A stretch of DNA of 32,000 nucleotides from Candidatus Electronema halotolerans (GCA_942493095.1 OW818675.1:1710001-1742000); one strand, 5' to 3'. Positions 1,249 to 21,413 are shown, counted from the first letter of the stretch. Made by a program: numbers and translations. The notes: generated from the letters alone by a model not told the origin.

Positions 1249-1362
1249 TTTTTCCTGCCAATAACCCGCTTTCTACGCCCGCCACATCTTTCCTTGGGAA
1301 CGCCCGTTCCTGTTCTTGACAAGCAGCTCCTGTCTGGCTGATCAGCCACATAATGGAACTGT

Positions 1363-1707: not shown

Positions 1708-2503
1708 TTTGTTTCTCCTTGTTGCGTTCTTTTCTCTTCTTCCATGCTGCCAGCCATTCGCTGATCATGGCATAGCCCAGCACGGTGATGATCGGGCAGA
1801 GGCAGGCAAAGGCGATCATGCCAAAGCCGTCCAAAGCCGGATTGCGGCCCGGCACTGCTCCGGCCAGGCCAAGGCCAAGGGCGGCGACCAAAGGCACGGT
1901 CACGGTTGAGGTGGAGACCCCGCCGGAGTCGTAGGCCAATGGGATGATATTTTTCGGGGCAAAGATGGTCAGCAGGGTGACGAGCAGATACCCGGCAAGT
2001 ATGTAGAGATGAAGCGGGGTGCCTGTGACAATGCGGAAGGCTCCGAGAGCAATGCCGCAGGCCACGCCTGTAGCCACTGTGATGCGCAGGCCGAGCTGGC
2101 TGATGGCTCCGCCGGAAACCTCATGAGCCTTGTGCGCCACTGCGATCAGCGACGGCTCGGCAATGGCTGTGGAAAAGCCGGTCAGGGCGGCGAACAGGTA
2201 AATCCAGCCGTAGTCTGTCCAATGCGCTGCTGCCGGGGCTGCTGCTGCCGAGCCATAGAGAAAGGCTGGATCAGCGAGCTGGACTGCCATAGTGGTGCCG
2301 AGCGGGAACAGGGCCTTTTCCAATCCGAGGAGAAACAGGGCCAAGCCGAGAATCACATAGACACAGCCGAGCAGCACCCGTTTGAGATGGGGCACTGGCT
2401 GGCGGAGGACAAAGAGCTGAAAGCAGGCGACTAAGAGGAGGATCGGGGCGACATCGCGCAGGGTTGCCAGCAGGATGGGCACAAAGGCGGCAGTAAGGTT
2501 CAT
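1694..2503 (-). CDS. DUF1538-family integral membrane protein (paralog 2)
   Basis: Polytopic membrane protein, paralogous to the adjacent gene (shared GLALF..GLE..LFP.G..MA and AYDSGGV[ST][13 protein letters not shown] motifs). Start set at ATG 2503 by alignment with the paralog; the listed ORF start at 2542 is a TTG. Confidence 0.8.
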   Translation of the reverse strand: MNLTAAFVPILLATLRDVAPILLLVACFQLFVLRQPVPHLKRVLLGCVYVILGLALFLLGLEKALFPLGTTMAVQLADPAFLYGSAAAAPAAAHWTDYGWIYLFAALTGFSTAIAEPSLIAVAHKAHEVSGGAISQLGLRITVATGVACGIALGAFRIVTGTPLHLYILAGYLLVTLLTIFAPKNIIPLAYDSGGVSTSTVTVPLVAALGLGLAGAVPGRNPALDGFGMIAFACLCPIITVLGYAMISEWLAAWKKRKERNKEKQSDAL

Positions 2504-2507
2504 CGCT

Positions 2508-3239
2508 TCAGCCAAAGAAAATGAGTCCGTAGCCCATGACAAAGATCATCGGCAGGAGCGAGGCAAAGGCGATGAGGCCGAAGCCGTCCACCATTGGATT
2601 GCGGCCCCGGATGATCGAGGCCAAGCCCACGCCAAGGGCGGCGACCAAGGGCACGGTGATGGTCGAAGTGGTCACGCCGCCGGAATCATAGGCAATGCCG
2701 ATGATCTCCTTGGGCGCGATCAGGGTCATGAGCATGACCAGAGCATAGCCGCCAATGATCAGGTAATGCACAGGCCAGCCCCGCAGGATGCGCAGCACCC
2801 CGATCAGAATGGCGGTGCCGACTGAGCAGGCCACAGACAGGCGCAGGCCCAAGGCGTACCGCTGCATGGCCTGTTCGCCTGCGGCCAGCAGCCCGGCCTG
2901 ACTGGCGGTTTCCGCCGCCTTGTCAGCAACCGCAATCAGGGCTGGTTCCGCCACGGTGGTGGAAAAACCCAAGGCAAAGGCGAAGAGCAGGAGCCAGAAC
3001 AGGCTGCCCTTGCGGGCCAAGGCTTCGGCCATGGTCTCGCCAATGGGAAAGAGGCCCATTTCCAAGCCTTGGACAAACAGGGCCAAGCCGATGACCACCA
3101 GCACTGCCCCGGTGAGCACTTCGGCCAGATCAGGAAGCGGCTGCTGGATGACGACAAGCTGAAAAAAGCTGATCACGGCAATGATCGGCAGCAGGTCGGC
3201 CAAGGCGGCCCAGAGCTTGTTACGAATGAGGCGGAGCAT
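2508..3239 (-). CDS. DUF1538-family integral membrane protein (paralog 1)
   Basis: 243 aa polytopic membrane protein with the same motifs as its neighbour. Its start overlaps the stop of the upstream gene by 20 nt. Confidence 0.8.
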
Positions 3240-4281
3240 GGTCTGCTGTCTGCTGGGCAGTCACAAAGCCCTTTTGACGAAGAAAGGTTTCCAACTTCTT
3301 GGCATATTCTTTAGTGGCCAGCGGACTGGGATGACCGTCATAAGGCAGATTCATATAGCGCGGATTTTTTCGGAAGCTGACCGAAATATCCACATTGGGT
3401 ATTCCGTGCTTGTCGGCAAAAGCCAGCATCTGCGGGTCAGTGCCAATGGTGGCAAGAATGAACTTCACCCCGTGCTGCTGGGCTAATCTGTTGATTTCCA
3501 GCACCAATGCCTCTGAGACCTTGCGGCTCTGGCGCAGCTTCTGCTCCAGCTCGTTCCACTTGATTTCCAAGAAGTGGGACAGGGCGGAATAGCGCATCAA
3601 GGGAAATTCCCTGTATTCAACCTTGGCAAGATGATACTGCAAATTTCCGTCGCTGTCCAGTCGGGCGTAAGGCTGAACCAGCGGGCCGAGCTTGTTCCAC
3701 GGGGCAATGGACTTGCGCCGCTTGCGGAGAAAGGTGTTCCGCTCATCATGGATGTCCGCATAGGCGAGCACGGCAATCTTGGGAGTCTTCTTTTTCAAGG
3801 CCTCGCGGAACTGAATCAGCGAATGAATGGTGCCGTAGCCGCTGAAGCCGAAGTTGACCACTTCGTAGTCTGGCAGGTGTTCCTGAAGCCGCCACGGATA
3901 GGTGTCCTCATCATTGAGGCTCCAGCCATGCGTGAACGAGCAGCCCAATATCCAGATTTCCGGCTTGTGCGCAGCAGGATTGTAGGTGTTGAGCGGATGG
4001 GTGATGCGCAGGCCATTGGGCAGATGGGTGACGTGGAAGCTGTAGTGTGTCTGGAGCAGGGTGACAGTGAACTGTCCGGGAATGGCGGCATAGCCAAGCA
4101 GCGGATCCTTGCGGAAGAATTTGCCGCCCGGCTCCACCCGCACCGGCGCATCCCGGACATGCCAGGGCTGCACGCCTTTCATGCGGGCAATGATCTCCCC
4201 GCCGCCCAGGAGGACAATGGTCAGGAAGAGCAGATAGGCTGCATAAAGAATGATTTTGTGCTTGAGAAGAAACGCTTTCAT
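3220..4281 (-). CDS. Membrane-anchored SGNH/GDSL-like hydrolase or acyl-esterase family protein (tentative)
   Basis: Start chosen at internal ATG 4281 ([27 protein letters not shown]..., N-terminal TM anchor, GGAG 8 nt upstream). Block-I-like [10 protein letters not shown], Gly block NFGFSGYGT and a C-terminal DGHPS (D-x-H) resemble SGNH blocks. Confidence 0.6.
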
Positions 4282-4327
4282 TGTTCTGCTCCTTGCTGGA
4301 CGCGGTTGTTGTGACCAGGCATTGATT

Positions 4328-6862
4328 TCATCGGCTGCCCGCCTCTCTTGCGCTCTTTTTGAGAATCCGCAGCCCGGCGGCGGCATCATTTTCCAAAGCC
4401 AGCACCTTGGCCAGCACCTCCCTCGGCCCGATGCCAGCCTCGGCATGAGGATGCAGCAACTCAAGCCGCAGCCTGCCCGCCTCCTCCAGCTTGAGCTTGC
4501 GGATAAACTTCTTCAGCTCAAAGGTCTGGGTTTTACCCTTGCGGCTGCGCTCCAGCAGCATGCTGGCCGCAACGTGGAAGGCGGCGATGCTGTCCGTCGC
4601 CTGATCTAAGTTCATACCCTCCGGCAGCAGGCAGTCATAACTGACAATCTCTGTCATCGGCACTTTCTTCTTGGCCGGAGCCAGCGATGTGACAGCCATG
4701 AAGCCGGGCAACTGGCGGTTCAGCTCGTCCATGACCTCGACCGGGCGGCGGATGGGTTCAGCCAAGTCCATCTCAAAGAACTCAATCTCGCTCTCCACGC
4801 CCACTGGCAAGGCCGGGCTGAACGAGACCTTGGGCGTGGGATGGAAGCCCTGCGAGAAAAGCACAGGCAGCCCGGCCCGTTGGAGAACGCGGAAGACAAG
4901 TTGCAGAATCTCCAGATGGCCAAGAAAGCGGCCATCACCAAGACGGTAATATTCGGCCCGATATCGGAACACCGCAGGCTGGCTCTGAGCTGGCCGCTCG
5001 ACCGTGCGCAGAGGACTGGCGGCAGTTTCATCCTGCTTGCTGTCAGGATTGAGCAGCGGCTTGATGGTCTTGAAATCGCAGAGGCCGCAGTTCTGGCAGC
5101 CATGCTTGCGGCAGTCCGGCGTGTAGGCGCGCTCCAGCGAGCGAGCGTATTCCTGCTCCAGAAAGCTGCGCTCCACGCCGCTGCGCAGGTGATCCCAGGG
5201 CAGGACTTCGCTCATCTCGCGTGGACGCAGGTAGGCTTGCAAATCAATGCCCAACCGCTCGGCGGCCTGCTGCCAGCGGGCGAGCGAAAAATGCTCATTC
5301 CAGCCGTCCAAGCGCGCTCCGTCCTGCCATGCCGCCTCAATCAGATAAGACAGTCTGCGGTCGCCCCGCGAGAACACGCCTTCCATGAACGATTGCTCCG
5401 GCTCGTGCCACTTGAGCTTGAAGCCCTTGCCCGGCAGCCGCTGCTTGAGCCGCTGAATGCGCTGCCGCGATTCCTCCAAGGAAATCTGGCCGCACCACTG
5501 GAAGGGCGTGTGCGGCTTGGGGACAAAGGTCGAAACCGAGACGTTGATGTCCGCCCGTCCTCCTTTGGCTTCCCGCCGCGCCCGCATGGCCAGCTCAACG
5601 ATTGCATCGACATCCTCCATTGTCTCAGTGGGCAGGCCGAGCATGAAGTAGAACTTGATCAGCTTCCAGCCCGCGCTGAAGGCATCGCGACAGCTTGCAA
5701 GCAAATCGTCTTCAGTGATGCCCTTGTTGATCACCTCGCGCAGGCGGTCAGTGCCTGCCTCCGGGGCGACCGTGAAGCCGGTCTTGCGCACCCGCCGAAT
5801 CTGGGCGATGACCTCTGGCGTAAGTGTGCCGACCCGCATTGAAGGCAGCGAGACTGCCACCCGTTCATCAGCAAAGCGGTCCATCAGCTTGGTCAGCAAA
5901 TCGGGCAGGCCGGAGAAGTCGCCGCTCGACAGCGAGAGCAGGGCCAGCTCGCCAAAGCCGGAACTGCTGATGCCCTGCTCGGCCAGGCGCATGATGTCGG
6001 CAATCGTGCGCTCACGCACCGGGCGGTAGATCATGCCAGCTTGGCAGAAGCGGCAGCCGCGTGTGCAGCCACGGGCAATCTCAATGCCAAGACGGTCATG
6101 CACTGGCTTGACTAATGGCACTAACGGACGTTCGAGCAGCTCCACTGGCGGCAGCTCCGGGACAATCCGGCGACGGACAAAGTCATAACCGGGCTTGAGC
6201 GGCAAGATGGCGGTCAGCCGCCCGTCCTCGTATTGAGGCTGAAACAAGGCAGGCACATAGACACCCGCAATCTCGGCCAGCCGATGCAGCTTTTCGCTGC
6301 GGGAGAGCTTGTCCGCCTTGGCCGAACGCAGGGCAGCGGCGATGTCGAGAATCACCTCCTCGCCGTCACCAAGGACAATGGCATCAAAGAAGTCTGCCAG
6401 CGGCTCTGGGTTGAGGGAGCAGGAACCGCCGCCAATTACTAAGGGCGCATCTTCGCCGCGCTTTGCCGCCCGCAGAGGAATCCCGGCCAGATCAAGAATG
6501 GTGAGGATATTGGTGAAGCACAGCTCATAAGGCAGAGTGATGCCGATGACATCAAAAGCTGCCAGAGGCCGCCTCGATTCGAGCGAGAAGAGTGGCAGCT
6601 GGTGACGCCGGAGCTGCGCTTCCATGTCCGTGTCCGGGGCATAGCAGCGTTCCGCAGCCAAGCCCGGCTGCTGGTTGATAATATGGTAGAGAATCTGCAA
6701 GCCTTGGTGCGACATGCCGATTTCATACAAGTCCGGGAAGACAAGGGCAAAGGCAAGATCAACTGCGGCATAATCAGGCCGGACGCTGTGCAGCTCACCG
6801 CCGATGTAGCGGCCCGGCTTGCGCACCAAGGGCAGGATGGAGTCTAAAGAGAGCGTGTTCAA
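4328..6862 (-). CDS. Radical SAM protein, a fusion of a B12-binding-like radical SAM domain and a radical-SAM-associated C-terminal domain (TIGR03960 + TIGR03936 / DUF2344 type)
   Basis: 844 aa. Radical SAM cluster motif GCTRGCRFCQAG. The N-terminus MNTLSLDSILPLVRKPGRYIGGE is typical of this family, and the C-terminal ~230 aa (FRYRAEYYRLGDGRFLGHLE...) resemble DUF2344. Confidence 0.9.
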   Translation of the reverse strand: MNTLSLDSILPLVRKPGRYIGGELHSVRPDYAAVDLAFALVFPDLYEIGMSHQGLQILYHIINQQPGLAAERCYAPDTDMEAQLRRHQLPLFSLESRRPLAAFDVIGITLPYELCFTNILTILDLAGIPLRAAKRGEDAPLVIGGGSCSLNPEPLADFFDAIVLGDGEEVILDIAAALRSAKADKLSRSEKLHRLAEIAGVYVPALFQPQYEDGRLTAILPLKPGYDFVRRRIVPELPPVELLERPLVPLVKPVHDRLGIEIARGCTRGCRFCQAGMIYRPVRERTIADIMRLAEQGISSSGFGELALLSLSSGDFSGLPDLLTKLMDRFADERVAVSLPSMRVGTLTPEVIAQIRRVRKTGFTVAPEAGTDRLREVINKGITEDDLLASCRDAFSAGWKLIKFYFMLGLPTETMEDVDAIVELAMRARREAKGGRADINVSVSTFVPKPHTPFQWCGQISLEESRQRIQRLKQRLPGKGFKLKWHEPEQSFMEGVFSRGDRRLSYLIEAAWQDGARLDGWNEHFSLARWQQAAERLGIDLQAYLRPREMSEVLPWDHLRSGVERSFLEQEYARSLERAYTPDCRKHGCQNCGLCDFKTIKPLLNPDSKQDETAASPLRTVERPAQSQPAVFRYRAEYYRLGDGRFLGHLEILQLVFRVLQRAGLPVLFSQGFHPTPKVSFSPALPVGVESEIEFFEMDLAEPIRRPVEVMDELNRQLPGFMAVTSLAPAKKKVPMTEIVSYDCLLPEGMNLDQATDSIAAFHVAASMLLERSRKGKTQTFELKKFIRKLKLEEAGRLRLELLHPHAEAGIGPREVLAKVLALENDAAAGLRILKKSAREAGSR

Positions 6863-7014
6863 GCTAACGTGTCAAGGCGGCTGAGGAATGGAGAGGCAGG
6901 CTGCGCTGTGCGGCCTGCTTGTTCAGGTTCAGGATGCGGCTGCCACCATAGCGGAAGATAGAGGGAAAAGGCAAGGAAAAGATAGGCAACTTGGAATCTC
7001 GGCAAACTGAAGCA

Positions 7015-8610
7015 TCATTTTTTGATAAACCGCTGCTTCAGCTTGCCGGTGATCTCTGCAAATTCCGGCAGGCGGAGCAGATGGAGCATGAGCGCGTGCA
7101 GCAGGGCGGCGGTGCTGATCAGCAGGGCCACTGCGGCAAGCTGAAAGAGAATTGCTCCGTCAAGCAGCGGGCGGAGGAGCAGCTTCATGGCAATCAATCC
7201 GACTGCCATGATCGCGCTGGCCAGAATGATCTTTGCCGTGCCTCTGCCGAGATAGCTGAGGGAAAACCCGGCCAGCTTCCGGTGCAGGATCAGGCCGAGA
7301 AAGAGGAAATTCAGCACCATTGAGCAGGAAGTGGAAAGGGCGATGGCCCGGAAGGAAAGCAGGTCAATGCTCAGGCTGATGAAGACGATGTTGACTGCCA
7401 CGGCAAGAAAGGAGCCGATCACCGGATATTTGGTGTTGTCGAGGGCATAGAAGACCGGCACCATGATTTTCACCGCTGAATAGGCGAACAGGCCGCAGGC
7501 ATAGCAGACCAAGGCTTGGGCGGTGCGGGCCGTGTCAGCAGGGGTGAAGGCTCCGTGCTCAAAGATCAGGCGGATGATCGGCTCGGCCAGCAGAATCAGG
7601 CCGACTGTTGCCGGGATGGTGAGGCTGAAGACCATGACCAAGGAGGAGGAGAAGGTCTGACGCAGGCCGGGCAAGTCCTTCCGGGCGGCATGACGGGCCA
7701 GCACTGGCATGGCGGCAATGGAGAAGGCCACGCCGAACACGCCGATGGGAAGCTGAACAAGGCGGAAGGCGTAATTGAGCCACGAGACTGAGCCTTCCAT
7801 GCAGGAAGAGGCAAAGTTGGTGTTGACAAAGATGTTGATCTGGGTGGCGGAAAGACCGATGGTGGCGGGCAGCATCAGGCGGAGGATGCGGCGCAGGCCG
7901 GGGTCGCGCAGATCAAGCTGGGGCATAAAACGGAAGCCGGTCTTGCGCAGCGCAGGCAGCTGAATCAGGAGCTGGAGCAGACCGCCGCTCAAGGTGCCCC
8001 ATGCCATGCCGACTATCGCCGGATAGCCAAATTTGGGCAGCAGCCAGGCCAAGCTCACGCCGCCGATGATTGAGCCAAGATTAAAGAAGGACGAGGACAT
8101 GGCCGGAATGAAGAACTTGCCCTTGCTGTTGAGCATGCCCATGACCACGGCTGCCAAGGCCACGAGGATGAGAAAGGGAAACATGATCCGGGTCATCATG
8201 GACGTGAGCGCAATTTTGCCTGTCACCTCGGCGAAATCCGGGGCCAAGAGGCGGACGATTGGCTCGGCCAGCAGGATGCCGACCAAGGTGAGCACACTGA
8301 GGAGAATGCTGATGAAGACTAAGACATTGGAGGCAAGCTGCCAGGTCGCCTCGCTGCCTTTGTTGGTGTCATAATCAGAAAAGACCGTGACAAAGGCGGC
8401 AGAAAGCGCGCCCTCGCCGAACAAGTCCCGGAGCAGGTTGGGAATGCGGAAGGCGACGACAAAGGCATCATAGGCGTATCCGGCTCCGAACAGCCCGGCA
8501 AATATCTGCTCCCGCACCAGCCCCAGCACCCGGCTGCACATCACCGCCGCGCTCACCGCCCCGGCAGAACGGGCAATCTTCCCTGTTGAACTGCTTGCTT
8601 TCTCTGACAT
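7015..8610 (-). CDS. murJ: Lipid II flippase MurJ (MviN)
   Basis: 531 aa polytopic protein. The N-terminus ...SRVLGLVREQIFAGLFGAGYAYDAFVVAFRIPNLLRDLFGEGALSAAFV is the hallmark MurJ motif. Confidence 0.9.
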   Translation of the reverse strand: MSEKASSSTGKIARSAGAVSAAVMCSRVLGLVREQIFAGLFGAGYAYDAFVVAFRIPNLLRDLFGEGALSAAFVTVFSDYDTNKGSEATWQLASNVLVFISILLSVLTLVGILLAEPIVRLLAPDFAEVTGKIALTSMMTRIMFPFLILVALAAVVMGMLNSKGKFFIPAMSSSFFNLGSIIGGVSLAWLLPKFGYPAIVGMAWGTLSGGLLQLLIQLPALRKTGFRFMPQLDLRDPGLRRILRLMLPATIGLSATQINIFVNTNFASSCMEGSVSWLNYAFRLVQLPIGVFGVAFSIAAMPVLARHAARKDLPGLRQTFSSSLVMVFSLTIPATVGLILLAEPIIRLIFEHGAFTPADTARTAQALVCYACGLFAYSAVKIMVPVFYALDNTKYPVIGSFLAVAVNIVFISLSIDLLSFRAIALSTSCSMVLNFLFLGLILHRKLAGFSLSYLGRGTAKIILASAIMAVGLIAMKLLLRPLLDGAILFQLAAVALLISTAALLHALMLHLLRLPEFAEITGKLKQRFIKK

Positions 8611-13040: not shown

Positions 13041-13975
13041 TCAAACCCAGCAATGACGGAAAAACGATTTGATTGATTTTGACTTAACCGTTTTCAGAGA
13101 TATATCATAAGCTTCCATCAGCTCACGCTCTGTTCTCGGCTTCAATTTTCTTATAGTGTTTTTCATTACTGACCAGCAGTATTCAATAGGGTTCAGTTCA
13201 GGACGATAAGGAGGGAGGAAAATGATCTTCGCTCCTGTACTTCTGATCAAAGCGAGAGCTTCTTTGTTTTTATGAGGACTGGCATTGTCAAGAACGACTG
13301 TCTTACTGCTGTCAAGATATTTCAAAAGATAATTTTTTATATAGAAATAAAAGACATCTCCTGTCATGGTGCCTTTAAATTTCATGCACTTCAATATTTT
13401 TCCAAACTTTACAGCTCCTATCATGCTTATTCTTTTCCCTTTACCTGAAGGTCTTTTTGAAAAAGCTCTTGTTCCTTTTCTTGATCTTGCAAATTTTCTC
13501 GACATGTTCAAACAGCATCCTGTCTCATCAATAAAGATGAAATTCTTTTTGTCAGCCTCGATCAGGCCTGCAAGGTAATTAACTGTCTTTGCTATATTTT
13601 CTTCTTTATACGCCGCCGGATCGCGGAAAGTTTTTTTTTCCGGCTGATTTTCAGTCTGGCGAGAGTTTCGCACAGCGTGGAAGGTGCTATTTTTAAATTG
13701 AATTTCTCGTATAAGCGATCACACATCTCTTCAAGCGTAAGATCGTTCTCGTCATCAATCATGCTGGTCAGAAAAGGAATATGAACTTCCTTGATTTTCG
13801 GAGGATTTCCGCCTTTATGAGGCTTCGGCTCAATCGTCCCCTCAGTCTTCCATCTTTTTACAAGACTTTGAACAAATTTATAGGAAACGTCAAGCAAATC
13901 TGCAGTTCTTCTCAATGATTTCTGTTTTTCATAAACAGACAAGACTTTCTTTCTGAAATCAATAGAATAAATCAT
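13041..13975 (-). CDS. IS630-family DDE transposase, in two frames joined by a probable -1 frameshift at an A9 run
   Basis: OrfA 13592-13975: MIYSIDFRKKVLSVYEKQKSLRRTADLL... (HTH). OrfB frame 13041-13673 contains FIDETG, VLDNASPHK and LNPIEYCW (DD35E spacing by my count). Slipping -1 on CGG AAA AAA AAA gives ...ISRKKK-TFRDPAAY.... Confidence 0.8.
13631..13639 (-). other. A9 slippery run (T9 on the + strand): candidate programmed -1 frameshift site of the IS630 transposase, or a phase-variable or inactivating homopolymer
   Basis: The two transposase frames overlap exactly here. The fusion junction gives a plausible continuous RKKKT sequence. Confidence 0.5.
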
Positions 13976-15632
13976 GGCAGACCTCCGTGTGTGAAAAAAT
14001 GGAAAAAACAGACAAGTCAAGTTTAATCTTTTTCTGATAACCATACAACCTGAAACCGCTATACAGCAACAGGTGGCTGTACGGCAGGATCCGGCGACGA
14101 TACCATCACCTTGCAGGCGGATGTCACGCTTGCGGCTACCCTGCCGGATATTGTCAGCACGATGACCATTGAAGGCGGCGGTCACTTCATCAGCGGTAAT
14201 AATGATGAGAACGTTGGCAGCGTGCTGTATATAACCAGCGACGGAGACCTGACACTAAATGAGACTACGATCAAGGAGGGAAAGACGACAGGCGACGGCG
14301 GGGGGATTTACAACGATGGCACTGCCTATCTAACGAATTCCATAGTCAGCGGCAATACTGCCTCCTCCTCCTCCTCCGATGGCGGGGGGATTCAGAACAA
14401 GGGTGTTATCTATCTGACGAACTCCACAGTCAGCGGCAATACTGCCTCCTCCTCCTCCTTCTCCTCCGATGGCGGGGGGATTTACAACTATGGCACCGTC
14501 ACGCTGACGAATTCCACAGTCAGCAACAATACAGCCTCTTCCTCCTCCTTCTCCAATGGCAGTGGGATTTATAACGCAGGCACAGTCACGCTGACGAACT
14601 CCACGATCAGTGGCAATACTGCTTCCTCCACGTCCTCCGCCTCCTCCGGCGGTGGAATTTACAACTATGGCACAGTCACGCTGACGAACTCCACGATCAA
14701 TGGCAATACTGCTTCCTCCACGTCCTCCGACTCCTCCGGCGGTGGAATTTATAACGCAGGCACAGTCACGCTGACGAACTCCACGATCAGTGGCAATACT
14801 GCTTCCTCCACGTCCTACTCCTACGGCGGTGGGATTTACAACTATGGCAATGGCACAGTCACGGTGACGAATTCCACGATCAGCGGCAATACTGCTTCCT
14901 CCACGTCCTCCGCCTCATTCGGCGGTGGGATTTACAACTATGGCACAGACACAGGCACAGTCACGCTGCAAAGCTCCATCATCAGCGGCAATACGGCTTA
15001 TATTGTCAATGAAGTTTATAACAAAGATACATTCAATGCTGTAGTCAATGCCGCAAGCTTCAATATCTTTGGCCACAGCGGTGAGACAGACACAGAGGCA
15101 TTCTCTGGCTTCACACCAGGTAGCAGCGATGTCACTGCTACCAGTGACGGCGACACACCGACTACGCTGGATGCCATTCTCAATACAACCTTGGCGGACA
15201 ATGACGGCCCTACGCAAACTCATGCCTTAGTTGCGGGCAGTCCAGCTATTGATCTGGACAAAGATTGCAGCACTGAGCTGACCGAGGATCAACGCGGCTA
15301 TACCCGCCCAGTCGGTGCGGGCTGCGATGCAGGATCGTTTGAATCTGCTGATATTACAGTTATTTTTACTGTTACACCGAACGCCGGTACCGGCGGCAGC
15401 GTCACTCCTGATACAGCTCAGACTGTTGCTGATGGCAGTACGGCCAGCTTCACCGTCACACCGGATGCAGGTTACAGTGCTGATGAAGTAGTCAGCGGCA
15501 CCTGTCCCGAAGGTAGCTGGGACGGCAGCATATACACCACTGGTCAGATAGATGCGGACTGCACTGTTGAGTTCAGCTTCATCGCCGACAAGAAGAAGAT
15601 AAACATGGTGCCCATCTACAAGCTGCTGCTGC

Positions 15633-15764
15633 TCAAGTGAGCGAAGCGGAAAGTGCCGCCGCCTTCGGCTCCGGCCAGCAGGGCAATGTCTTGCCCGTGC
15701 CTGCGCTGGCTTCAATCAGAATCTGGCCGCGCAGAGGCAGGGTAAGAGGATTAAGCGGGCACAT
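15633..15764 (-). pseudogene. recB: Orphan truncated copy of the recB 5' end (recB')
   Basis: The minus strand reads MCPLNPLTLPLRGQILIEASAGTGKT, then diverges (LPCWPEPKAAALSASLT*). The genuine RecB starts MRPLNPLTLPLRGQILIEASAGTGKTYTIALL. Outside the 47-bp identical core the differences are mostly synonymous third-position changes. Confidence 0.8.
15688..15764. repeat. Direct repeat copy 2: the orphan recB 5' end
   Basis: See copy 1 (12252-12328). The two copies are offset by 3436 bp. Confidence 0.9.
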
Positions 15765-15790: not shown

Positions 15791-17233
15791 TCAGAACAGC
15801 AGCAGCCGCACTCCCGGCAGAAATTTCGGTTTGATTGGTGAAGCGATAAAGGTCAGATTGCCGCTCTCCGGGTAGCTGACAGCACCTTCAGAGTTGCTCG
15901 CCTCCACGTGCCAGTAATTGGTGCCGTCATTGGTCAGATCGGCTCCATAAGGAACTGTCGCACTGCAATAGCTGTTGCTGATTTCGCCTGCAACAGAAGC
16001 GGATGTATTGCTGTCTGTGCCGTAATGAATAATGCAGTTATCCGCATTGGCAATATTTATCCGCAGCTGCTGGGTAGAGGCGTTGTATGAAGACACCTTT
16101 GCATCGTCTGCGGGAGATGGACTGGAAAGCGTTGGCAGCCCACTCGGCCAGCCCATGTCCTTGAGCATGCCTTTGGCCACTGGGCCAGGATCATGCACAG
16201 CCTCGCCATTGCTGATTGCCCAGACCATAAGCTGGTTGACGGTGTTGTTGAAGGTGTCGTAATCAAGATGAGAATAACTGGAACCAGGTTTCCATGTGGC
16301 AGGCGCATAAATTTTCACCCGCTGGCCGCCATTGGCTGTCATGGCGTTCGGGCCGTGAAACCAAAGGTCTCCTGAACGCAAAGCCGTGCCAAGGGCAACA
16401 GACGGGGCCGTGTAGGACACAATATCCTTGCCTGCGCCATCTTTGACAAACACATCGTAAATATTAGGAAAGCCACCTTCACCTTCGGCAGGTTCCCAAA
16501 AACCTGAACCCTCCTGGCTGGTGCTGTCATAGCTTGCAGTGCCAGAGAAATTCAAGCCATGCGCAATTTCATGCAGGACTACTGTGAGCATGTCCATCTG
16601 ATCTGACGGCGGGTTTCCATCCACACCATAATACCAAGTAAAATTTCTGTTGTAGGTGATATGCATATCTGGGTTTTCAGTATCTAAATCTTTTCCTGCC
16701 AAGGCATTCGCCAATGATACAGAATACCAAGTCTCACTTCTTGGAGCAGCGGCAAAGTCACGCACCATATTTCCTGCGCCCGAATACCCTAAGGTTGAGG
16801 ATTCCCCAAAATCACTCCAGCAGGCCCGGATCGTGACAGGCACATCAGACTTGATGATATTTCCCCAGATGCTGGCTGCCGCCTCAAAGGCAGCTTTGGC
16901 TTCTTCTGGAAAAGTATAGCAGTTTGCTCCCAAAATATCCGTACCACCGGAGGTGACATAGTCGATAGTGAAGGTGGCAGAAGCAGTCTGTGCAGCAGTC
17001 ATCAGGTTGATTGCCGCAGGAATTTTCAGCGGATTCTGGCTGATGTTCGGATCGAAAACCACAACAAGAGGCTGCGAGCCGTTCATCAATGTCTTGCCAT
17101 CCGCAGACAGCTTGGCGGGCAGCGGTTGAGGAATATAAACTTCCTCTCTGCTTGCAGCATGACTTTGCACGGCAGCAAATACGGTCAGCATTGCTGCAAC
17201 AGTTACGATAGATTGCACTTTCATTTTTTTCAT
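15791..17233 (-). CDS. Secreted zinc metalloprotease-like protein (HExxH)
   Basis: Signal peptide MKKMKVQSIVTVAAMLTVFAAVQSHAAS. Zinc motif VVLHEIAHGLNF. C-terminal beta-rich domain. Start set at ATG 17233; the listed ORF start at 17263 is a TTG. Noticeably more AT-rich than the core genes. Confidence 0.75.
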   Translation of the reverse strand: MKKMKVQSIVTVAAMLTVFAAVQSHAASREEVYIPQPLPAKLSADGKTLMNGSQPLVVVFDPNISQNPLKIPAAINLMTAAQTASATFTIDYVTSGGTDILGANCYTFPEEAKAAFEAAASIWGNIIKSDVPVTIRACWSDFGESSTLGYSGAGNMVRDFAAAPRSETWYSVSLANALAGKDLDTENPDMHITYNRNFTWYYGVDGNPPSDQMDMLTVVLHEIAHGLNFSGTASYDSTSQEGSGFWEPAEGEGGFPNIYDVFVKDGAGKDIVSYTAPSVALGTALRSGDLWFHGPNAMTANGGQRVKIYAPATWKPGSSYSHLDYDTFNNTVNQLMVWAISNGEAVHDPGPVAKGMLKDMGWPSGLPTLSSPSPADDAKVSSYNASTQQLRINIANADNCIIHYGTDSNTSASVAGEISNSYCSATVPYGADLTNDGTNYWHVEASNSEGAVSYPESGNLTFIASPIKPKFLPGVRLLLF

Positions 17234-17296
17234 TTTGTTGAAGTTGCCTGTTGTCTTCTGCAACAGATAGTCTTTACAAGACGCATTATGTTTTTC

Positions 17297-18538
17297 TCAC
17301 AGCCGCCTGCCGAAATGCAGCACGCTTTTGGCGATGACTGCGCCGGTGTGGGACTGGGTCCAGTCATGGTGGCGGTCATCAAAGGGCAGAAAGACTAAGG
17401 AGGCGGCCTGTGCTGCCGGGGCCGCGCCGGAGAGCTGGGAATATATTTCACGTCCGCTGGCGGCGCAGGCAGCCAGCACCACTTTGAGTGATTGCAAGGC
17501 CTCGCTGCGGGGCAGAGTCACTGGATGCGGACTGACCAGCTCCTTGATTTTTGTCTGCCGCTCCGGCAGCAAATACCGCTGACTGATGGTGAGCTGCTTG
17601 CTGACCCGGAGAAACATTTCCGGGCGCAGCTTGAAGGCTGGAATCCAGAACTGCATGGCCTGCCGCCGCCACTCCGGGCGCGGCACCAGCGGCTGGTTGG
17701 TGCGCTCGATGAAATCTGCAAAGCTGCGGAGGCGCAAGGAAGGGAATTGGACAGCAATTTTCCAGAACGGCAGATGCAGGGCCGCCTGCCAATCGTTAGG
17801 AACGACTTTGCAGGCCACTCCCTCCAAGGCATCTTTGCCAATCTGCCAGGCCGTGTCGCAGTTGGGGCAGAGCGGGACAAGGCAGTCGCCCTCGCCGTCC
17901 AGTGTGCCGCCGCAGCGTGGACAGAGGGCGGCGAGAAATCGGGTTTGCCAATGGGGCTGAACGGGAACACCGTTTTTCAGCACTCCGACGGAACTGGGCA
18001 GCGGTTCGCCCAGCACTGCGTCAAACAGCCCGTCTTCTCGCGGCAGCAGCGGCAGATAGATAAAGCTGACTGTCTCGCCGATATAGGCATGGTGATGGAC
18101 CTGCTTCTCAGCATGGCCTTCCATCAGATTGTGCAGCTTGGTGGCCTTGAAGAAAATATCTCTGACTGTAAGAGCGAGCGGCAAAAAGCGGCCCTTGGTT
18201 TCGCTGTGAACTCGCACTAATTTCATGGCTTGAGGTCGGAGGCCGAGGGAGGCGGGCAGGCCCGGCTGACCGCAGCCATCGTGAGTGGTGTCCAAGACCC
18301 GGTAGGAAACCCCGCTGTCTGTCACAGAAAAGACAGTGCCTTTGAAGCGCAGATAGGGCGCGTAAATCAGGCGGGCCTGATCTTTGGCCCGGTTGGGCAA
18401 GGCATAGCGGAACGGCGCGCCGCCGGTGAGGAGAAAACTTTTGACCTTGCAGTAGGGACAGGTGAGCAGGCGGTCGTCTGCATCTAACGTGACCGGGCCG
18501 CCGCACTGCGGGCAGGGCTGCTCGACCCGCAGGCTCAC
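17297..18538 (-). CDS. Hypothetical protein with two zinc ribbons (apparent internal duplication)
   Basis: A GTG start at 18538 overlaps the stop of the upstream SPFH gene (GTGA). ZnR1 is CPQCGGPVTLDADDRLLTCPYC and ZnR2 is CPRCGGTLDGEGDCLVPLCPNC. Each is followed ~25-30 aa later by a hydrophobic P-[YF]-[LW]-[RK] segment (IYAPYLRFKG / LHLPFWKIAV). Confidence 0.7.
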   Translation of the reverse strand: MSLRVEQPCPQCGGPVTLDADDRLLTCPYCKVKSFLLTGGAPFRYALPNRAKDQARLIYAPYLRFKGTVFSVTDSGVSYRVLDTTHDGCGQPGLPASLGLRPQAMKLVRVHSETKGRFLPLALTVRDIFFKATKLHNLMEGHAEKQVHHHAYIGETVSFIYLPLLPREDGLFDAVLGEPLPSSVGVLKNGVPVQPHWQTRFLAALCPRCGGTLDGEGDCLVPLCPNCDTAWQIGKDALEGVACKVVPNDWQAALHLPFWKIAVQFPSLRLRSFADFIERTNQPLVPRPEWRRQAMQFWIPAFKLRPEMFLRVSKQLTISQRYLLPERQTKIKELVSPHPVTLPRSEALQSLKVVLAACAASGREIYSQLSGAAPAAQAASLVFLPFDDRHHDWTQSHTGAVIAKSVLHFGRRL

Positions 18539-19656
18539 AGCTTCAAGCCGCAGCCATTGCAGAACTTGGCTCCGGGCAGATTCTCCTGCTTGCAGGCCGC
18601 GCAGATGATCGCGGCAGGCTTTTGATCCGCAGGCTGGCCGCAGCGGGAGCAGAACTTGGCTCCGGGAGTGAGATTCTTGCCGCAGTTGGCGCACTGCATG
18701 AGGACAATCTGCTGATGACCGCAGAGCGGGCAGAAACGGGCCTGAGCCGGAATCGAGTTGCCGCAGTCAGAGCAGCGGCTGACCGCCGCAGAAGCTGCTT
18801 GCCCTGCTGTTCCCTGCTGTAGTCCCGCGAACATGGCAGGCATCATCAGGCCCATGCCCAGCCCCAATCCAGCTCCGGCCTCGCCGCCGCTCTGGGCCGC
18901 CTTTTCCATAGCCATTGCCGCTTTCATGCGGACAAACTTGTCCATGTCCTTGATCACGCCAAGGCGACTGCGGTCGTCAATCGCGGCCTGCACCTCTTCC
19001 GGCGGCGTGATGGAGGAGATGTACAGCTCATCCAAGGCCAGACCAAGCCGGACAAAATCCCGGACCAGCCGTTTGCGCATCTCCAAGGCCATCTCGTCAA
19101 ACTGAGACGGCAGGCTGAACAGGGTGTCAACAGTTTCGCCAAGATAGTCGTTGAGCCGGGAAACAATCACCCGGCCCAGATACTCTTCAATCTGATCCGT
19201 ATTGTATTTGCCCATTGTCCCAGCCAAGGTGTTGATGAACAGCACTGGCTGGATGACCCGGATGTTGCAAATCCCGTGCGCCCGCAGGCGGACAAAGCCC
19301 AGCTCTGAGTCGCGGAAGGCCATGGGATCGCGGGTGCCCCATTTCAGATTGGGAAAGAGCTTGAGATTGACAAAATAGACCTCAGCCCGCAGCGGGCTGC
19401 TCATGCCCCACGGCGCGGAAAACAGCTTGGTGATGATCGGAATGTTGCCGGTGCGCAGGGTGTGGCGGCCCGGGCCAAAGACATCGCCAGCCCGGCCTTT
19501 GTAATACAAAACCGCTGCCTGGCTTTCGCGCACCGTGAGCTGGGCACCGAACTTGATTTCGCCGGAACCTTTTTCCGGCAGGCGGTGGAGCAGCTCCTGG
19601 CCGCTCTCATCAAACCATTCCAGATTTTCCAGCAGAATCAGGTTGTCGGCACTCAT
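18535..19656 (-). CDS. SPFH (stomatin/prohibitin/flotillin/HflKC) domain protein of the COG4260 'virion core protein-like' type, with three C-terminal zinc ribbons
   Basis: ATG 19656 with GGAG 5 nt upstream. LENLEWFDESG...EIKFGAQLTVRESQAAVLYYKG...KWGTRDP...RLRAHG is characteristic of this family. Gly/Ala/Met linker. The tail has CSDCG-x9-CPLCG, CANCG-x9-CSRCG and CAACK-x9-CNGCG. Confidence 0.85.
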   Translation of the reverse strand: MSADNLILLENLEWFDESGQELLHRLPEKGSGEIKFGAQLTVRESQAAVLYYKGRAGDVFGPGRHTLRTGNIPIITKLFSAPWGMSSPLRAEVYFVNLKLFPNLKWGTRDPMAFRDSELGFVRLRAHGICNIRVIQPVLFINTLAGTMGKYNTDQIEEYLGRVIVSRLNDYLGETVDTLFSLPSQFDEMALEMRKRLVRDFVRLGLALDELYISSITPPEEVQAAIDDRSRLGVIKDMDKFVRMKAAMAMEKAAQSGGEAGAGLGLGMGLMMPAMFAGLQQGTAGQAASAAVSRCSDCGNSIPAQARFCPLCGHQQIVLMQCANCGKNLTPGAKFCSRCGQPADQKPAAIICAACKQENLPGAKFCNGCGLKL

Positions 19657-19711
19657 TGCAGCTCCATTTGAAAAAAGCAAAGCATTCTCACAGCCCGGTC
19701 AGCAGAACAAC

Positions 19712-19969
19712 TCAGTCAATATCCGGCTTGCGGTAGTATTTCACGTTTTCCGAATGAGTTGGCGGCGGCTCCTCGTTCAGAACCCTGTTGATGCGGCTGG
19801 GCATCTTTGTCACCGGCTCTTTCATGATCAATTCATAGCCGATGGAAAAGACCAGCAGGAATCCCGCAAGCATGAACAATTTCTTTTTTCGCCACTCTGA
19901 GGGCAGAAAGATAAGCCCAACAGTGGCGGCAATCATAATGTAGAGATGATACTCGACCAGCATGGACAT
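19712..19969 (-). CDS. Small (85 aa) two-TM membrane protein, hypothetical
   Basis: Strong SD (GAGGAGGG 8 nt upstream of the ATG). Two hydrophobic helices (YIMIAATVGLIFL, LFMLAGFLLVFSIGY) and a charged tail. Lies 55 nt upstream of the SPFH gene on the same strand. Confidence 0.6.
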   Translation of the reverse strand: MSMLVEYHLYIMIAATVGLIFLPSEWRKKKLFMLAGFLLVFSIGYELIMKEPVTKMPSRINRVLNEEPPPTHSENVKYYRKPDID

Positions 19970-20024
19970 GAGCTGCGCCCTCCTCTGTATTTTTTTGCAA
20001 TCAAGTCATCGACAATAAATAATC

Positions 20025-21413
20025 TTAGTTCTTGGCCAGCACGTCAAAATCCATTGCTTCAGCATAGCGGAGCAGCCAAGTCATATCAATGCCGCGTCCT
20101 TTGACAGTGACAATGAACCGGCTGGCAACCACGATATTGATCTCGCCGCTGTGTTCCTCTTCATTGTATTTTATCATGGCCCGCTGCCTTTTGATGGTCT
20201 TGAGGTTGCCGCCTGAAGCTCCTGCGAAAAGCGGATTGTTGAGCATCATGATAATGGATTGCAGAACCGGAGAATCAGAAACAATCTCAATGGAAATCAC
20301 AGAGCCGTTCTGGGTGAAATAATCACGGCTGACAGTTGAGCCGCCGCCGAAAACAGCAGTGCCAAGGGATTGCGACACAGCTTCTTTGGCCTGCCAGCCG
20401 TAAAACGGTTCCGGCAGCAATTTCTTGAGCAGTTCGGTTTTTTTCTGGCGGATCAGGTGGGCGGCGTAATCAAGATTGGAAACCGCGCCTGCGAAATCCT
20501 TGCTCCTGTACTGCCGCATGGCCTCTTCAACAGCAGCAACAATGTCATCCTGCGCTGCTGGAGGGGCAAGAACAGGGGCAGGAAACGCCGGGCTGCCGGA
20601 CTGCTGCACTGCTTGTTGTCCAGCAGAAGCAGAGGTCATGGCCGGCAGAACTGCCTGCGGTGCTGAGGAGGCGGGCAAGCTCTGCGGCGGTTCAGGCACA
20701 GGCCAGCCTGAGTCTTGCCTGAACTGCGGTTGTGCTCTATTTTGCGACTGCGCCGGAGAACTGCCGCTGTTCTGCTGCCTGTTGGGAACAGCGGCTGGAG
20801 AGACGGACTGCGGCTGGCTTGGCACCGAAGCGGCTGGCTTTTCCGGCAGCTGCTCCTTAACAGGGGCTTGCGCCTCAATGACGACAATCTCCTGATCAGG
20901 ATAGGCGGACCAAGTTGACGGTTGGCCCGCGCCCTGCGCCGGAACAGCACTGTCCTGCTGCCTGTTGGGAACAGCGGCTGGAGAGACGGACTGCGGCTGG
21001 CTTGGCACCGAAGCGGCTGGCTTTTCCGGCAGCTGCTCCTCAACAGGGGCCTGCGCCTCAATGATGACAGCTTCCTGAGCCGGGGCAGCGTTGTTCTGCT
21101 GTCCGCTGGAAAGAGCATCAGCAGGAGCTGCGGCGGCAGGCTCTGCCTGCGGGGTTGTTTTTTCCTCAGCAGGCAGTTCCTGAGCCGGGGCATCAGCAGA
21201 AGGCTGCGTTTCCTGCGGGGAGTCTTGATCCACAAGCTGCCAAATATCAATGGCTTGAATAAGCGCATCGTCCTGAGACTGCTGCGGAGTGCTGCTGTCG
21301 GCAGCTTGAGTCGTTGGCATTTGCTCATCTGCTGCTGCTGCCGACAGCGGGCCGCTTGCTGCCAAGGCCAGTAAAACAACAGCAAAAACAGGCTTCCTGA
21401 TGGTCTGTTTCAT
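20025..21413 (-). CDS. Secreted protein with a long P/Q/A/S-rich low-complexity region (internal tandem duplication) and a globular C-terminal domain of unknown function
   Basis: Signal peptide MKQTIRKPVFAVVLLALAASGPLSAAAA. The duplicated segment IEAQAPV[EK]EQLPEKPAASVPSQPQSVSPAAVPNRQQ occurs twice. The C-terminal ~170 aa (…LPEPFYGWQAKEAV…IVVASRFIVTVKGRGID…) is not low-complexity. Confidence 0.75.
   Translation of the reverse strand: MKQTIRKPVFAVVLLALAASGPLSAAAADEQMPTTQAADSSTPQQSQDDALIQAIDIWQLVDQDSPQETQPSADAPAQELPAEEKTTPQAEPAAAAPADALSSGQQNNAAPAQEAVIIEAQAPVEEQLPEKPAASVPSQPQSVSPAAVPNRQQDSAVPAQGAGQPSTWSAYPDQEIVVIEAQAPVKEQLPEKPAASVPSQPQSVSPAAVPNRQQNSGSSPAQSQNRAQPQFRQDSGWPVPEPPQSLPASSAPQAVLPAMTSASAGQQAVQQSGSPAFPAPVLAPPAAQDDIVAAVEEAMRQYRSKDFAGAVSNLDYAAHLIRQKKTELLKKLLPEPFYGWQAKEAVSQSLGTAVFGGGSTVSRDYFTQNGSVISIEIVSDSPVLQSIIMMLNNPLFAGASGGNLKTIKRQRAMIKYNEEEHSGEINIVVASRFIVTVKGRGIDMTWLLRYAEAMDFDVLAKN
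20748..21069. repeat. Tandem duplication, two copies, period ~183-186 bp, inside the secreted P/Q-rich protein gene
   Basis: 20772-20886 and 20955-21069 differ at 3 of 115 positions by my alignment. Confidence 0.85.

What the first reader, a model, noticed from the sequence alone, without database searches (positions are those of the whole stretch)
17297..19969. SPFH-triple-zinc-ribbon protein coupled to a duplicated zinc-ribbon protein and a small membrane protein, with no PspA or NfeD partner
Seen directly: a small 2-TM protein gene, then 55 nt later a COG4260-type SPFH protein with three CxxC-x9-CxxC ribbons, then a 413-aa protein whose GTG start overlaps the SPFH stop (GTGA). That last protein contains two zinc-ribbon modules in an apparent internal repeat.

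Established knowledge: in Bacillus subtilis the same SPFH subfamily (YdjI) is encoded in pspA-ydjGHI. There it works with YdjG, which as I recall is a zinc-ribbon protein, and with the membrane protein YdjH to recruit PspA to the membrane.

This cluster has a comparable trio but no PspA. It is embedded between genes for secreted proteins (P/Q-rich protein upstream, metalloprotease downstream) on the same strand. The 413-aa partner matches no family I recognise. It is a candidate envelope-stress or membrane-scaffold module of unknown output.
Basis: partly seen in the sequence, partly recalled or inferred. Interest (0 to 1): 0.65.

Follow-up and report, generated by a model that had tools for sequence, protein, structure and literature searches.

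The report
SPFH scaffold with new zinc-ribbon partner
A membrane-scaffold (SPFH) protein with three zinc ribbons is encoded next to an uncharacterised double zinc-ribbon protein of apparently new fold, and this gene pair is conserved across sulfate-reducer and cable-bacterium relatives, pointing to an undescribed kind of SPFH partner system.

Summary
All three ORFs are real and lie on the minus strand. They are an 85-aa 2-TM ORF, a 373-aa Band_7_1 SPFH protein with three C-terminal zinc ribbons, and a 413-aa protein whose GTG overlaps the SPFH stop codon.

Only the last two form a conserved unit. The SPFH gene sits directly upstream of the 413-aa homologue in 142 of 154 informative loci, down to about 30% identity of the 413-aa protein. 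The flanking genes vary.

The small membrane ORF, the P/Q-rich protein and the metalloprotease are lineage-specific neighbours. The small ORF is absent even from a relative whose 413-aa protein is 90% identical.

The SPFH protein is a YdjI/SamI-type protein: 25% identical over its full length, with the same Gly/Met linker and ribbon tail. The 413-aa protein shares only the zinc ribbon with YdjG and has no TM segment. The small ORF is unrelated to YdjH.

The 413-aa family has hundreds of clusters, all annotated hypothetical, and no Pfam, NCBIfam or PADLOC match. It is an internal duplication of a ribbon plus α/β module. A high-confidence AlphaFold model (pLDDT 93.5) has no PDB match.

Best reading: a stoichiometric cytoplasmic SPFH–partner complex acting at the inner membrane face, independent of any operon-encoded PspA. 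This is a new variant of a known kind; its function is inferred, not shown.

The parts
18535..19656 (-). Gene for a 373-aa TM-less SPFH protein (Band_7_1, YdjI/SamI type) with a C-terminal triple zinc-ribbon tail. First gene of the conserved pair.
   Evidence: Pfam PF13421 at 203 bits, plus DZR and Zn_Ribbon_1. 25% identity to B. subtilis YdjI over the full length. Highest 19-residue Kyte-Doolittle mean is 1.42, so no clear TM segment. Orthologues sit directly upstream of the partner gene in 142 of 154 informative loci.
18958..19566 (-). SPFH (Band_7_1) domain, residues 31-233 of the SPFH protein.
   Evidence: Pfam alignment covers residues 31-233 against profile positions 8-210 of 211.
18802..18894 (-). 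Conserved Gly/Ala/Met-rich hydrophobic linker (GEAGAGLGLGMGLMMPAMFAGL), a possible membrane-contact segment.
   Evidence: The sequence is. The motif AG.GLGMG.G.MMPAMF is kept in orthologues down to 55% identity. It aligns with the Gly/Met-rich low-complexity region of YdjI. A membrane role is inferred only.
18550..18774 (-). Three tandem CxxC-x10-CxxC zinc ribbons (residues 295-312, 322-339, 352-369).
   Evidence: Regex scan. Pfam DZR, Zn_Ribbon_1 and Zn_ribbon_3 each match three stretches. 97 of 100 full-length orthologues have exactly three ribbons.
17297..18538 (-). Gene for the 413-aa cytoplasmic partner: two tandem modules, each a four-Cys ribbon followed by an α/β domain. Uncharacterised family with a predicted fold that has no solved relative.
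   Evidence: No Pfam, NCBIfam or PADLOC family. 982 homologues and 1097 50%-identity clusters at E<=1e-3. Internal repeat by hhalign at 96%. AlphaFold2 pLDDT 93.5, pTM 0.91. No Foldseek PDB hit at E<=0.001. No TM segment.
18449..18514 (-). Partner zinc ribbon 1 (C9, C12, C27, C30; CxxC-x14-CxxC).
   Evidence: The four Cys are invariant in 106 sequences.
17858..17923 (-). Partner zinc ribbon 2 (C206, C209, C224, C227; CxxC-x14-CxxC).
   Evidence: The four Cys are invariant in 106 sequences.
18535..18538 (-). GTGA start/stop overlap between the SPFH gene and the partner gene, implying translational coupling.
   Evidence: Sequence. The closest genome locus L001 has the same 4-nt overlap (SPFH match ends at 6004, partner starts at 6001). 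The median gap in other loci is 16-26 nt.
19712..19969 (-). 85-aa ORF with two TM segments and a strong Shine-Dalgarno sequence, 55 nt upstream of the SPFH gene. A lineage-specific neighbour, possibly co-transcribed, and not part of the conserved module.
   Evidence: Hydropathy. RBS GAGGAGG. Found only in contigs carrying the identical protein. No tblastn match in 160 related loci. Absent from the relative L083, whose partner protein is 90% identical. No similarity to YdjH.
20019..20089 (-). Two overlapping sigma-70-like promoter matches upstream of the small ORF. Weak consensus matches only.
   Evidence: each matches 9 of 12 positions. The region as a whole has 9 such sites against 2.2 expected from shuffles.

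Best explanation
The functional unit is a two-gene operon, not a trio.

Gene 1 encodes a TM-less, YdjI/SamI-type SPFH scaffold protein. It carries a conserved Gly/Met-rich hydrophobic linker and a tail of three zinc ribbons.

Gene 2 is translationally coupled to gene 1. It encodes a dedicated cytoplasmic partner built from two tandem copies of a four-Cys ribbon plus an α/β domain, and its predicted fold has no solved relative.

Inferred mechanism: the two proteins are made in fixed ratio and form a complex. As other SPFH proteins do, the SPFH subunit oligomerises into a ring or cage at the cytoplasmic face of the inner membrane, with peripheral attachment through the SPFH domain and the Gly/Met segment. 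Its ribbon tail and the partner's ribbons act as protein-protein docking modules.

In this reading the partner takes the place that NfeD, FtsH or YdjG/YdjH hold in other SPFH operons, as the client or adaptor whose activity or location the scaffold controls. By analogy with B. subtilis SamGHI, the output would be membrane-state sensing or maintenance that does not need an operon-encoded PspA.

Shown here: gene structure, domain content, family size, conserved adjacency, the internal duplication, the absence of TM segments, and the lack of known relatives.

Inferred: complex formation, membrane association, and physiological role.
For: - The SPFH gene lies directly upstream on the same strand in 70 of 80 genome loci and 72 of 80 metagenome loci. 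That is 142 of 154 loci with enough upstream sequence. Partner identity falls to 30-39% in the metagenome set.
- Nothing else is conserved around the pair in distant loci. Flanks there are housekeeping genes such as ychF, pth, prs and xerD, named here from reading the listed N-terminal sequences rather than from a domain scan.
- A 4-nt start/stop overlap is present here and in L001, and median gaps elsewhere are 16-26 nt.
- 94 pairs have the same architecture of three SPFH ribbons plus two partner ribbons.
- The SPFH protein aligns end to end with YdjI. In B. subtilis, YdjI is a soluble SPFH protein that depends on its operon partners, including the ribbon protein YdjG (PMC8581546). It also has PspA-independent roles (bioRxiv 10.64898/2026.02.06.704340).
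- The partner has no TM segment and folds as one compact body at pTM 0.91.
- Some partner homologues carry an extra C-terminal DZR ribbon of the same type as the SPFH tail.
- The module is absent from viral contigs and from PADLOC, and it shows lineage-tracking synteny in Desulfobulbaceae. These fit a chromosomal, cellular function.
Against: - No experiment or complex prediction supports a physical interaction.
- Neither protein has a clear membrane anchor, so membrane association is an assumption. The Gly/Met linker reaches a Kyte-Doolittle mean of only 1.1-1.4.
- In eight Ca. Electrothrix loci, in L059 and in 3 metagenome loci, the partner gene is intact without an adjacent SPFH gene. The partner may therefore work alone or with an unlinked SPFH gene.
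- The partner diverges about twice as fast as the SPFH protein: mean identity 35-50% against 60-71%. That pattern is also seen in conflict-related genes.
- No PspA, NfeD or protease is linked, so the output is unknown.
Confidence: 0.55

Rival explanations
1. The three genes (small 2-TM protein, SPFH, 413-aa protein) are the functional equivalent of B. subtilis YdjH, YdjI and YdjG. They would form a membrane-anchored stress module that recruits a PspA encoded elsewhere.
For: The SPFH protein is of YdjI type. YdjG is a ribbon protein and YdjH is membrane-associated. The small ORF has a good RBS, lies 55 nt upstream on the same strand, and has promoter-like sites in front of it.
Against: The small ORF is not conserved in any of 160 related loci, nor in a relative whose 413-aa protein is 90% identical. 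It has no TPM domain and no similarity to YdjH. The 413-aa protein matches YdjG only in the ribbon, lacks a TM segment, and has its ribbons about 175 residues apart rather than in tandem. No PspA is in the window.
Confidence: 0.08
2. The pair is an anti-phage or other conflict system. The SPFH cage would sequester the ribbon protein, an effector or sensor, until infection.
For: The partner evolves faster than the SPFH protein. In the close relative L083 a NACHT/NB-ARC-TPR STAND gene lies just downstream. In the window an IS630 transposase and variable surface-protein genes lie nearby. Flanks differ even between close relatives.
Against: No PADLOC hit for any of the five proteins. No relatives in IMG/VR viral contigs. 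In most loci the neighbours appear to be housekeeping genes, and synteny tracks taxonomy, as expected for vertical inheritance. No recognisable effector domain such as a nuclease, protease, TIR or pore-former.
Confidence: 0.08
3. The 413-aa protein is a nucleic-acid-binding or regulatory ribbon protein (TFIIB-, RpoP- or PriA-like, as some pipelines label it). The SPFH protein would tether or release it to couple membrane state to gene expression.
For: Source annotations include 'RNA polymerase subunit RPC12/RpoP', 'PriA' and 'ribosomal protein L37AE'. There are weak ribbon hits to RNA polymerase subunit P in the PDB. In B. subtilis, loss of SamI causes global transcriptional changes.
Against: All those labels rest on the roughly 30-residue ribbon alone. 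PDB E-values are 0.15 or worse. No HTH or other DNA/RNA-binding domain was detected.
Confidence: 0.12
4. The adjacency is inherited synteny without functional coupling, and the two proteins act independently.
For: The partner occurs without an adjacent SPFH gene in Ca. Electrothrix and a few other loci.
Against: Adjacency holds in 92% of informative loci, while every other neighbour changes, down to about 30% partner identity. The pair has overlapping or very short intergenic junctions.
Confidence: 0.05

Closest known systems
B. subtilis pspA-ydjGHI (renamed pspA-samGHI) operon: YdjI/SamI SPFH protein with YdjG and YdjH
   Same: The SPFH subfamily is the same (Pfam Band_7_1). Both SPFH proteins lack a TM segment and have a Gly/Met-rich linker followed by a C-terminal zinc ribbon. 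Both operons encode a partner that begins with a four-Cys ribbon. B. subtilis also shows PspA-independent functions for this system.
   Different: There are three ribbons on the SPFH protein here, against one on YdjI. No pspA and no TPM-domain YdjH homologue is present. The partner is soluble, has its two ribbons about 175 residues apart, each followed by its own domain, and shows no detectable homology to the YdjG C-terminal domain. YdjG has two tandem ribbons, an NTF2-like domain and a TM segment (PMC11237479). Gene order also differs: SPFH first here, last in B. subtilis.
SPFH-NfeD operons (stomatin/NfeD, FloA-NfeD2, FloT-YuaF, QmcA-YbbJ, YqiK-YqiJ) and HflK/C-FtsH
   Same: The principle is shared: an SPFH scaffold is encoded next to, and works with, a dedicated partner or client. 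This rests on established knowledge and on PMC11237479.
   Different: No NfeD or protease domain is present. Neither protein here has a TM anchor. The partner belongs to an unrelated, uncharacterised family.
Archaeal 'Meth_adaptin' ESCRT-like loci (Makarova et al. 2024, PMC10936438)
   Same: [quoted passage not shown]
   Different: They are multi-gene loci with Vps4/ESCRT components and adaptin-appendage domains. None of these was detected here. Foldseek hits to β-sandwich proteins (arrestin, VPS26) had probability 0.03 or below and TM-score about 0.1.

Membership tests
SPFH, Band_7_1 subfamily (YdjI/SamI type; COG4260) | Match to Pfam PF13421 above the gathering score | tested here: met
   203 bits against a cutoff of 24, covering residues 31-233 and nearly the whole profile.
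SPFH, Band_7_1 subfamily (YdjI/SamI type; COG4260) | No transmembrane anchor (a soluble SPFH protein) | tested here: met
   The highest 19-residue Kyte-Doolittle mean is 1.42, in the Gly/Met linker, and there is no N-terminal hydrophobic segment. This was a hydropathy scan only, not a dedicated TM predictor.
SPFH, Band_7_1 subfamily (YdjI/SamI type; COG4260) | Low-complexity Gly/Met linker followed by a C-terminal zinc ribbon | tested here: met
   BLASTP against B. subtilis YdjI aligns through the linker into the first ribbon at E 5e-28. There are three ribbons here instead of one.
SPFH, Band_7_1 subfamily (YdjI/SamI type; COG4260) | Encoded in an operon with pspA and recruits PspA to the membrane | tested here: not met
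   No PspA_IM30 domain was found in any sizeable ORF of the window, and no family other than the pair recurs among neighbours of related loci (sequence clustering, with only some neighbours scanned against Pfam). Recruitment itself cannot be tested here.
YdjG/SamG family (TFIIB-type zinc-ribbon membrane protein) | Two tandem N-terminal ribbons matching Pfam Zn_Ribbon_TF (PF08271) | tested here: not met
   YdjG hits PF08271 at E 1.7e-11 in two stretches within residues 5-80. The 413-aa protein has no PF08271 hit, and its ribbons lie at residues 9-30 and 206-227.
YdjG/SamG family (TFIIB-type zinc-ribbon membrane protein) | Homologous C-terminal (NTF2-like, YpeB-related) domain | tested here: inconclusive
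   Profile-profile comparison aligns only the ribbon (probability 86%, 34 columns). Domain-only comparisons give 2% and 18% probability. The YdjG profile was shallow (Neff about 2), so remote homology is not excluded. No structure comparison was possible.
YdjG/SamG family (TFIIB-type zinc-ribbon membrane protein) | C-terminal transmembrane segment | tested here: not met
   The highest 19-residue Kyte-Doolittle mean in the 413-aa protein is 1.04. YdjG ends in a hydrophobic segment, AAWFSGIAGGTFLALKLVSLMMGGGF.
YdjH/SamH family (TPM-domain membrane protein) | TPM_phosphatase domain (PF04536) | tested here: not met
   YdjH hits PF04536 at E 4.3e-23. The 85-aa ORF has no such hit, and BLASTP against YdjH finds nothing.
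YdjH/SamH family (TPM-domain membrane protein) | Conserved co-occurrence with the SPFH gene | tested here: not met
   The small ORF is absent from 160 related loci and from L083.
SPFH-NfeD operon | Adjacent NfeD-domain gene | tested here: not met
   No NfeD domain was found in the window ORFs.
Known anti-phage defence systems (PADLOC-DB 2.0) | Match of any component to a defence-system model | tested here: not met
   No hit for the SPFH protein, the partner or the two larger flanking proteins. The small ORF gave only a chance-level Cas6 hit at E 0.012.

The most novel reading that the evidence does not exclude
The 413-aa family is a structurally new class of SPFH partner. Together with the triple-ribbon SPFH protein it would form a self-sufficient sub-membrane assembly with no integral anchor, in which Zn-ribbon to Zn-ribbon contacts replace the TM partners, NfeD and PspA of all described SPFH systems. 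This would define a fourth type of bacterial SPFH operon, with its own as yet unknown activity centred on the invariant polar residues (D83, R101, Q103, D173, D275).
Probability: 0.2. Interest if true: 0.75.

Novelty: new variant of a known kind. Interest (0 to 1): 0.5.

Why it matters
SPFH proteins such as flotillins, stomatins and HflK/C are universal membrane organisers, and their function is usually dictated by the partner encoded next to them.

Only a few partner types are known: NfeD, FtsH, and YdjG/YdjH/PspA. This pair would add a widespread partner family that is unannotated and appears structurally new. It would also show that YdjI-type SPFH proteins operate without an operon-linked PspA or membrane anchor.

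The pair gives a compact two-gene system for asking how a TM-less SPFH scaffold finds the membrane and what zinc-ribbon tails do. At least one culturable species carries it (Desulfobulbus alkaliphilus, L072). It also supplies an annotation for hundreds of 'hypothetical' or mislabelled genes ('RpoP', 'PriA', 'L37AE') in Thermodesulfobacteriota, including cable bacteria.

Tried and rejected
- **YdjG homology.** I recalled the B. subtilis YdjG sequence from memory and verified it against the database (P0271 at 100%, P0272 at 99% from B. subtilis). BLASTP, single-sequence hhalign, profile-profile hhalign and domain-only hhalign all found nothing beyond the ribbon. One weak motif resemblance reached only 18% probability and is not claimed: PVTLPxSEA...LVYLPF against VIPFTISKEEA...MYVPFW.
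- **YdjH equivalence of the small ORF.** Rejected.
- **First AlphaFold model.** Built from 26 close homologues, it was mediocre (pLDDT 70), so its Foldseek searches of the PDB and BFVD were uninformative. A model from a 106-sequence alignment reached pLDDT 93.5 and still found no PDB relative. The arrestin, VPS26 and norovirus P-domain rows are noise, with probability 0.03 or below and TM-score about 0.1.
- **PDB sequence searches.** The partner profile gave only ribbon-level hits at E 0.15 or worse. The SPFH protein gave none.
- **Other negatives.** PADLOC and two viral-contig scans found nothing.
- **A conserved third gene.** I looked for a small TM ORF upstream of the SPFH gene and found none. 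In Desulfobulbaceae an FmdB-type ribbon protein lies upstream, and in some Desulfobacterales a divergently transcribed 98-aa TM protein does, but both are lineage-specific synteny.
- **Literature.** Searches for Band_7_1, COG4260, and SPFH with zinc ribbon found no description of this pair.
Full report
**Observation.** The region 17297-19969 carries three consecutive ORFs on the minus strand.
- An 85-aa ORF at 19712-19969 has two hydrophobic segments and a GAGGAGG ribosome-binding site.
- A 373-aa ORF follows 55 nt downstream, at 18535-19656 with an ATG start.
- A 413-aa ORF at 17297-18538 has a GTG start that overlaps the preceding TGA as GTGA. Homologues start at the same residue, which supports both start calls.

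The middle protein matches Pfam Band_7_1 at 203 bits and ends in three zinc ribbons. The 413-aa protein has two CxxC-x14-CxxC ribbons at residues 9-30 and 206-227. It matches no Pfam, NCBIfam or PADLOC family.

**The 413-aa protein belongs to a large, unannotated family.** A word-indexed search found 982 homologues, led by Ca. Electronema, Ca. Electrothrix and Desulfobulbaceae proteins. An exhaustive profile search found 1097 50%-identity clusters at E<=1e-3, and 454 at E<=1e-30. A further search seeded with distant members returned Desulfobacterales and Desulfatiglandales proteins and one Nitrospirae MAG protein. Nearly all are named 'hypothetical'. Some carry ribbon-derived mislabels such as RpoP, PriA or L37AE.

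All eight Cys are invariant in 106 sequences, together with Q11, D83, R101, Q103, D173 and D275. The two halves of the protein are related: hhalign gives probability 96%, E 1.7e-9. This falls to 29% without the ribbons, although the alignment register stays the same. There is no TM segment.

**What is conserved around it.**
- Among 80 genome loci with 41-83% partner identity, an SPFH orthologue lies directly upstream on the same strand in 70.
- Among 80 metagenome loci fetched with distant family members, with 30-39% identity to the window's protein, it does so in 72. Five of the remaining eight have too little upstream sequence to judge.
- Overall this is 142 of 154 informative loci.
- Gaps are short, with medians of 16-26 nt and 4-nt overlaps here and in L001.
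- 97 of 100 full-length SPFH orthologues have exactly three ribbons, and the linker motif AG.GLGMG.G.MMPAMF is conserved.

Nothing else is conserved. Desulfobulbaceae share a longer synteny: aroB-like gene, FmdB-type ribbon protein, SPFH, partner, cytidine-type deaminase, radical SAM enzyme, TPR-methyltransferase. In distant loci only the pair persists, among neighbours that read as housekeeping genes.

The small 2-TM ORF, the P/Q-rich protein and the metalloprotease have no counterpart next to the pair elsewhere; only the metalloprotease recurs at all, about 1.6 kb downstream of the pair in L003. The small ORF is found only on contigs carrying the identical protein. It is absent from L083, whose partner protein is 90% identical; there an AMIN-domain gene ends 30 nt before the SPFH start.

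The exceptions are eight Ca. Electrothrix loci, L059 and three metagenome loci. In these an intact partner gene has no adjacent SPFH gene. In most of the Electrothrix loci it instead follows a histidine-kinase gene.

**Comparison with B. subtilis pspA-ydjGHI.** I recalled the YdjG sequence and confirmed it against the database (100% to P0271 and 99% to B. subtilis P0272). I then fetched the operon: PspA_IM30, Zn_Ribbon_TF protein, TPM_phosphatase protein, Band_7_1 protein.
- The window's SPFH protein aligns with YdjI over its full length at 25% identity, E 5e-28, through the Gly/Met linker into the ribbon.
- The 85-aa ORF shows nothing in common with YdjH.
- The 413-aa protein resembles YdjG only in the ribbon, by BLASTP, hhalign and domain-only hhalign.

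The literature describes YdjG as two tandem ribbons, an NTF2-like domain and a TM segment. It describes YdjH as a TPM-domain membrane protein and YdjI as a soluble SPFH protein that needs both for membrane localisation (PMC8581546, PMC9239133, PMC11237479). A 2026 preprint reports PspA-independent roles for the renamed SamGHI proteins.

The SPFH membership is therefore solid. The partner and the small ORF fail the YdjG and YdjH membership tests. An analogy in working principle remains reasonable.

**Structure.** A model from 26 close homologues reached only pLDDT 70. A model from 106 diverse homologues reached pLDDT 93.5 and pTM 0.91, with no low-confidence segment. Foldseek against 350,542 PDB chains found no match at E<=0.001. 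The best whole-protein rows have TM-score about 0.1, and only ribbon-sized fragments align. The fold therefore has no solved relative detectable this way. The AlphaFold DB was not available, so 'new fold' is provisional.

**Mechanism.** I conclude that this is a two-gene SPFH-partner operon. Conserved adjacency, coupled translation and a fixed 3+2 ribbon architecture point to a stoichiometric complex. By analogy with other SPFH systems, the SPFH subunit would oligomerise at the cytoplasmic face of the membrane and hold or regulate the partner. The ribbons would serve as docking modules. Some partner homologues even carry an extra DZR ribbon of the SPFH-tail type.

Complex formation, membrane association and physiological output are all inferences.

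Against a defence role:
- no PADLOC hits;
- no viral-contig relatives;
- housekeeping-type contexts with vertical synteny.

In its favour are only the partner's faster divergence and occasional STAND or IS neighbours.

**Verdict.** What is of interest is a widespread, undescribed SPFH partner family of unknown fold, not a YdjGHI-like trio. I rate it a new variant of a known kind, of moderate interest.

Noticed in passing
window 13041-14185 (minus strand): An IS630-family transposase is split into two overlapping ORFs: an HTH_Tnp_IS630/HTH_32 part at 13592-14185 and a DDE_3 part at 13041-13673. It sits in a low-GC patch (38% against about 57-60% around it). It is likely a frameshifted or programmed-frameshift insertion sequence, and it marks a rearrangement point downstream of the gene pair.
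   Followed up: partly
window 14111-15640 (plus strand); tandem repeats at 14293-14952: A 509-aa protein is rich in 'GGGIYN.G.VTLTNSTISGNTASS' repeats, with a weak Chlamydia PMP repeat hit. It is encoded by a 90-bp tandem array of 7.4 copies at 80% matches. It is probably a variable surface or autotransporter-like protein.
   Followed up: partly
window 20025-21413 (minus strand): A 462-aa P/Q/A-rich protein has an N-terminal signal-like segment and a block of about 37 aa (IEAQAPV.EQLPEKPAASVPSQPQSVSPAAVPNRQQ) present twice. It has no Pfam or NCBIfam hit. It is not homologous to the AMIN-domain protein that holds this position in the close relative L083.
   Followed up: partly
window 15791-17263 (minus strand): A 490-aa secreted protein with an HExxH motif gives a sub-threshold match to the NF038122 metalloprotease family (47.7 bits against a cutoff of 80). 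A 53%-identical copy lies in the Desulfobulbaceae locus L003, but not adjacent to the gene pair there.
   Followed up: partly
L010-L017 (Ca. Electrothrix loci), about 2800-7250: In marine cable bacteria the partner gene is intact, with all eight Cys kept, but no SPFH gene precedes it. In most of these loci it follows a large hybrid histidine kinase or response-regulator kinase, and a deaminase gene follows it. Whether the SPFH gene has moved elsewhere in these genomes could not be checked.
   Followed up: partly
L083 (ENA contig; partner 90% identical), 838-6344: Even in this close relative, both flanks of the pair differ from the window. An AMIN-domain protein lies upstream, and a 662-aa NB-ARC/NACHT-TPR STAND protein lies downstream.
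   Followed up: no
for example L026 4065-4559 and L001 4348-4842: A 164-aa FmdB-type Zn_ribbon_8 protein (MPIYEF.C.DCN...) lies just upstream of the SPFH gene in many Desulfobulbaceae loci. This would be a third zinc-ribbon protein in the neighbourhood. It is lineage-restricted and absent from the window.
   Followed up: partly
proteins P0169 and P0177 (about 500 aa): Some partner-family members have a long insertion after the first module and an extra C-terminal DZR-type zinc ribbon, the same ribbon type as in the SPFH tail.
   Followed up: partly
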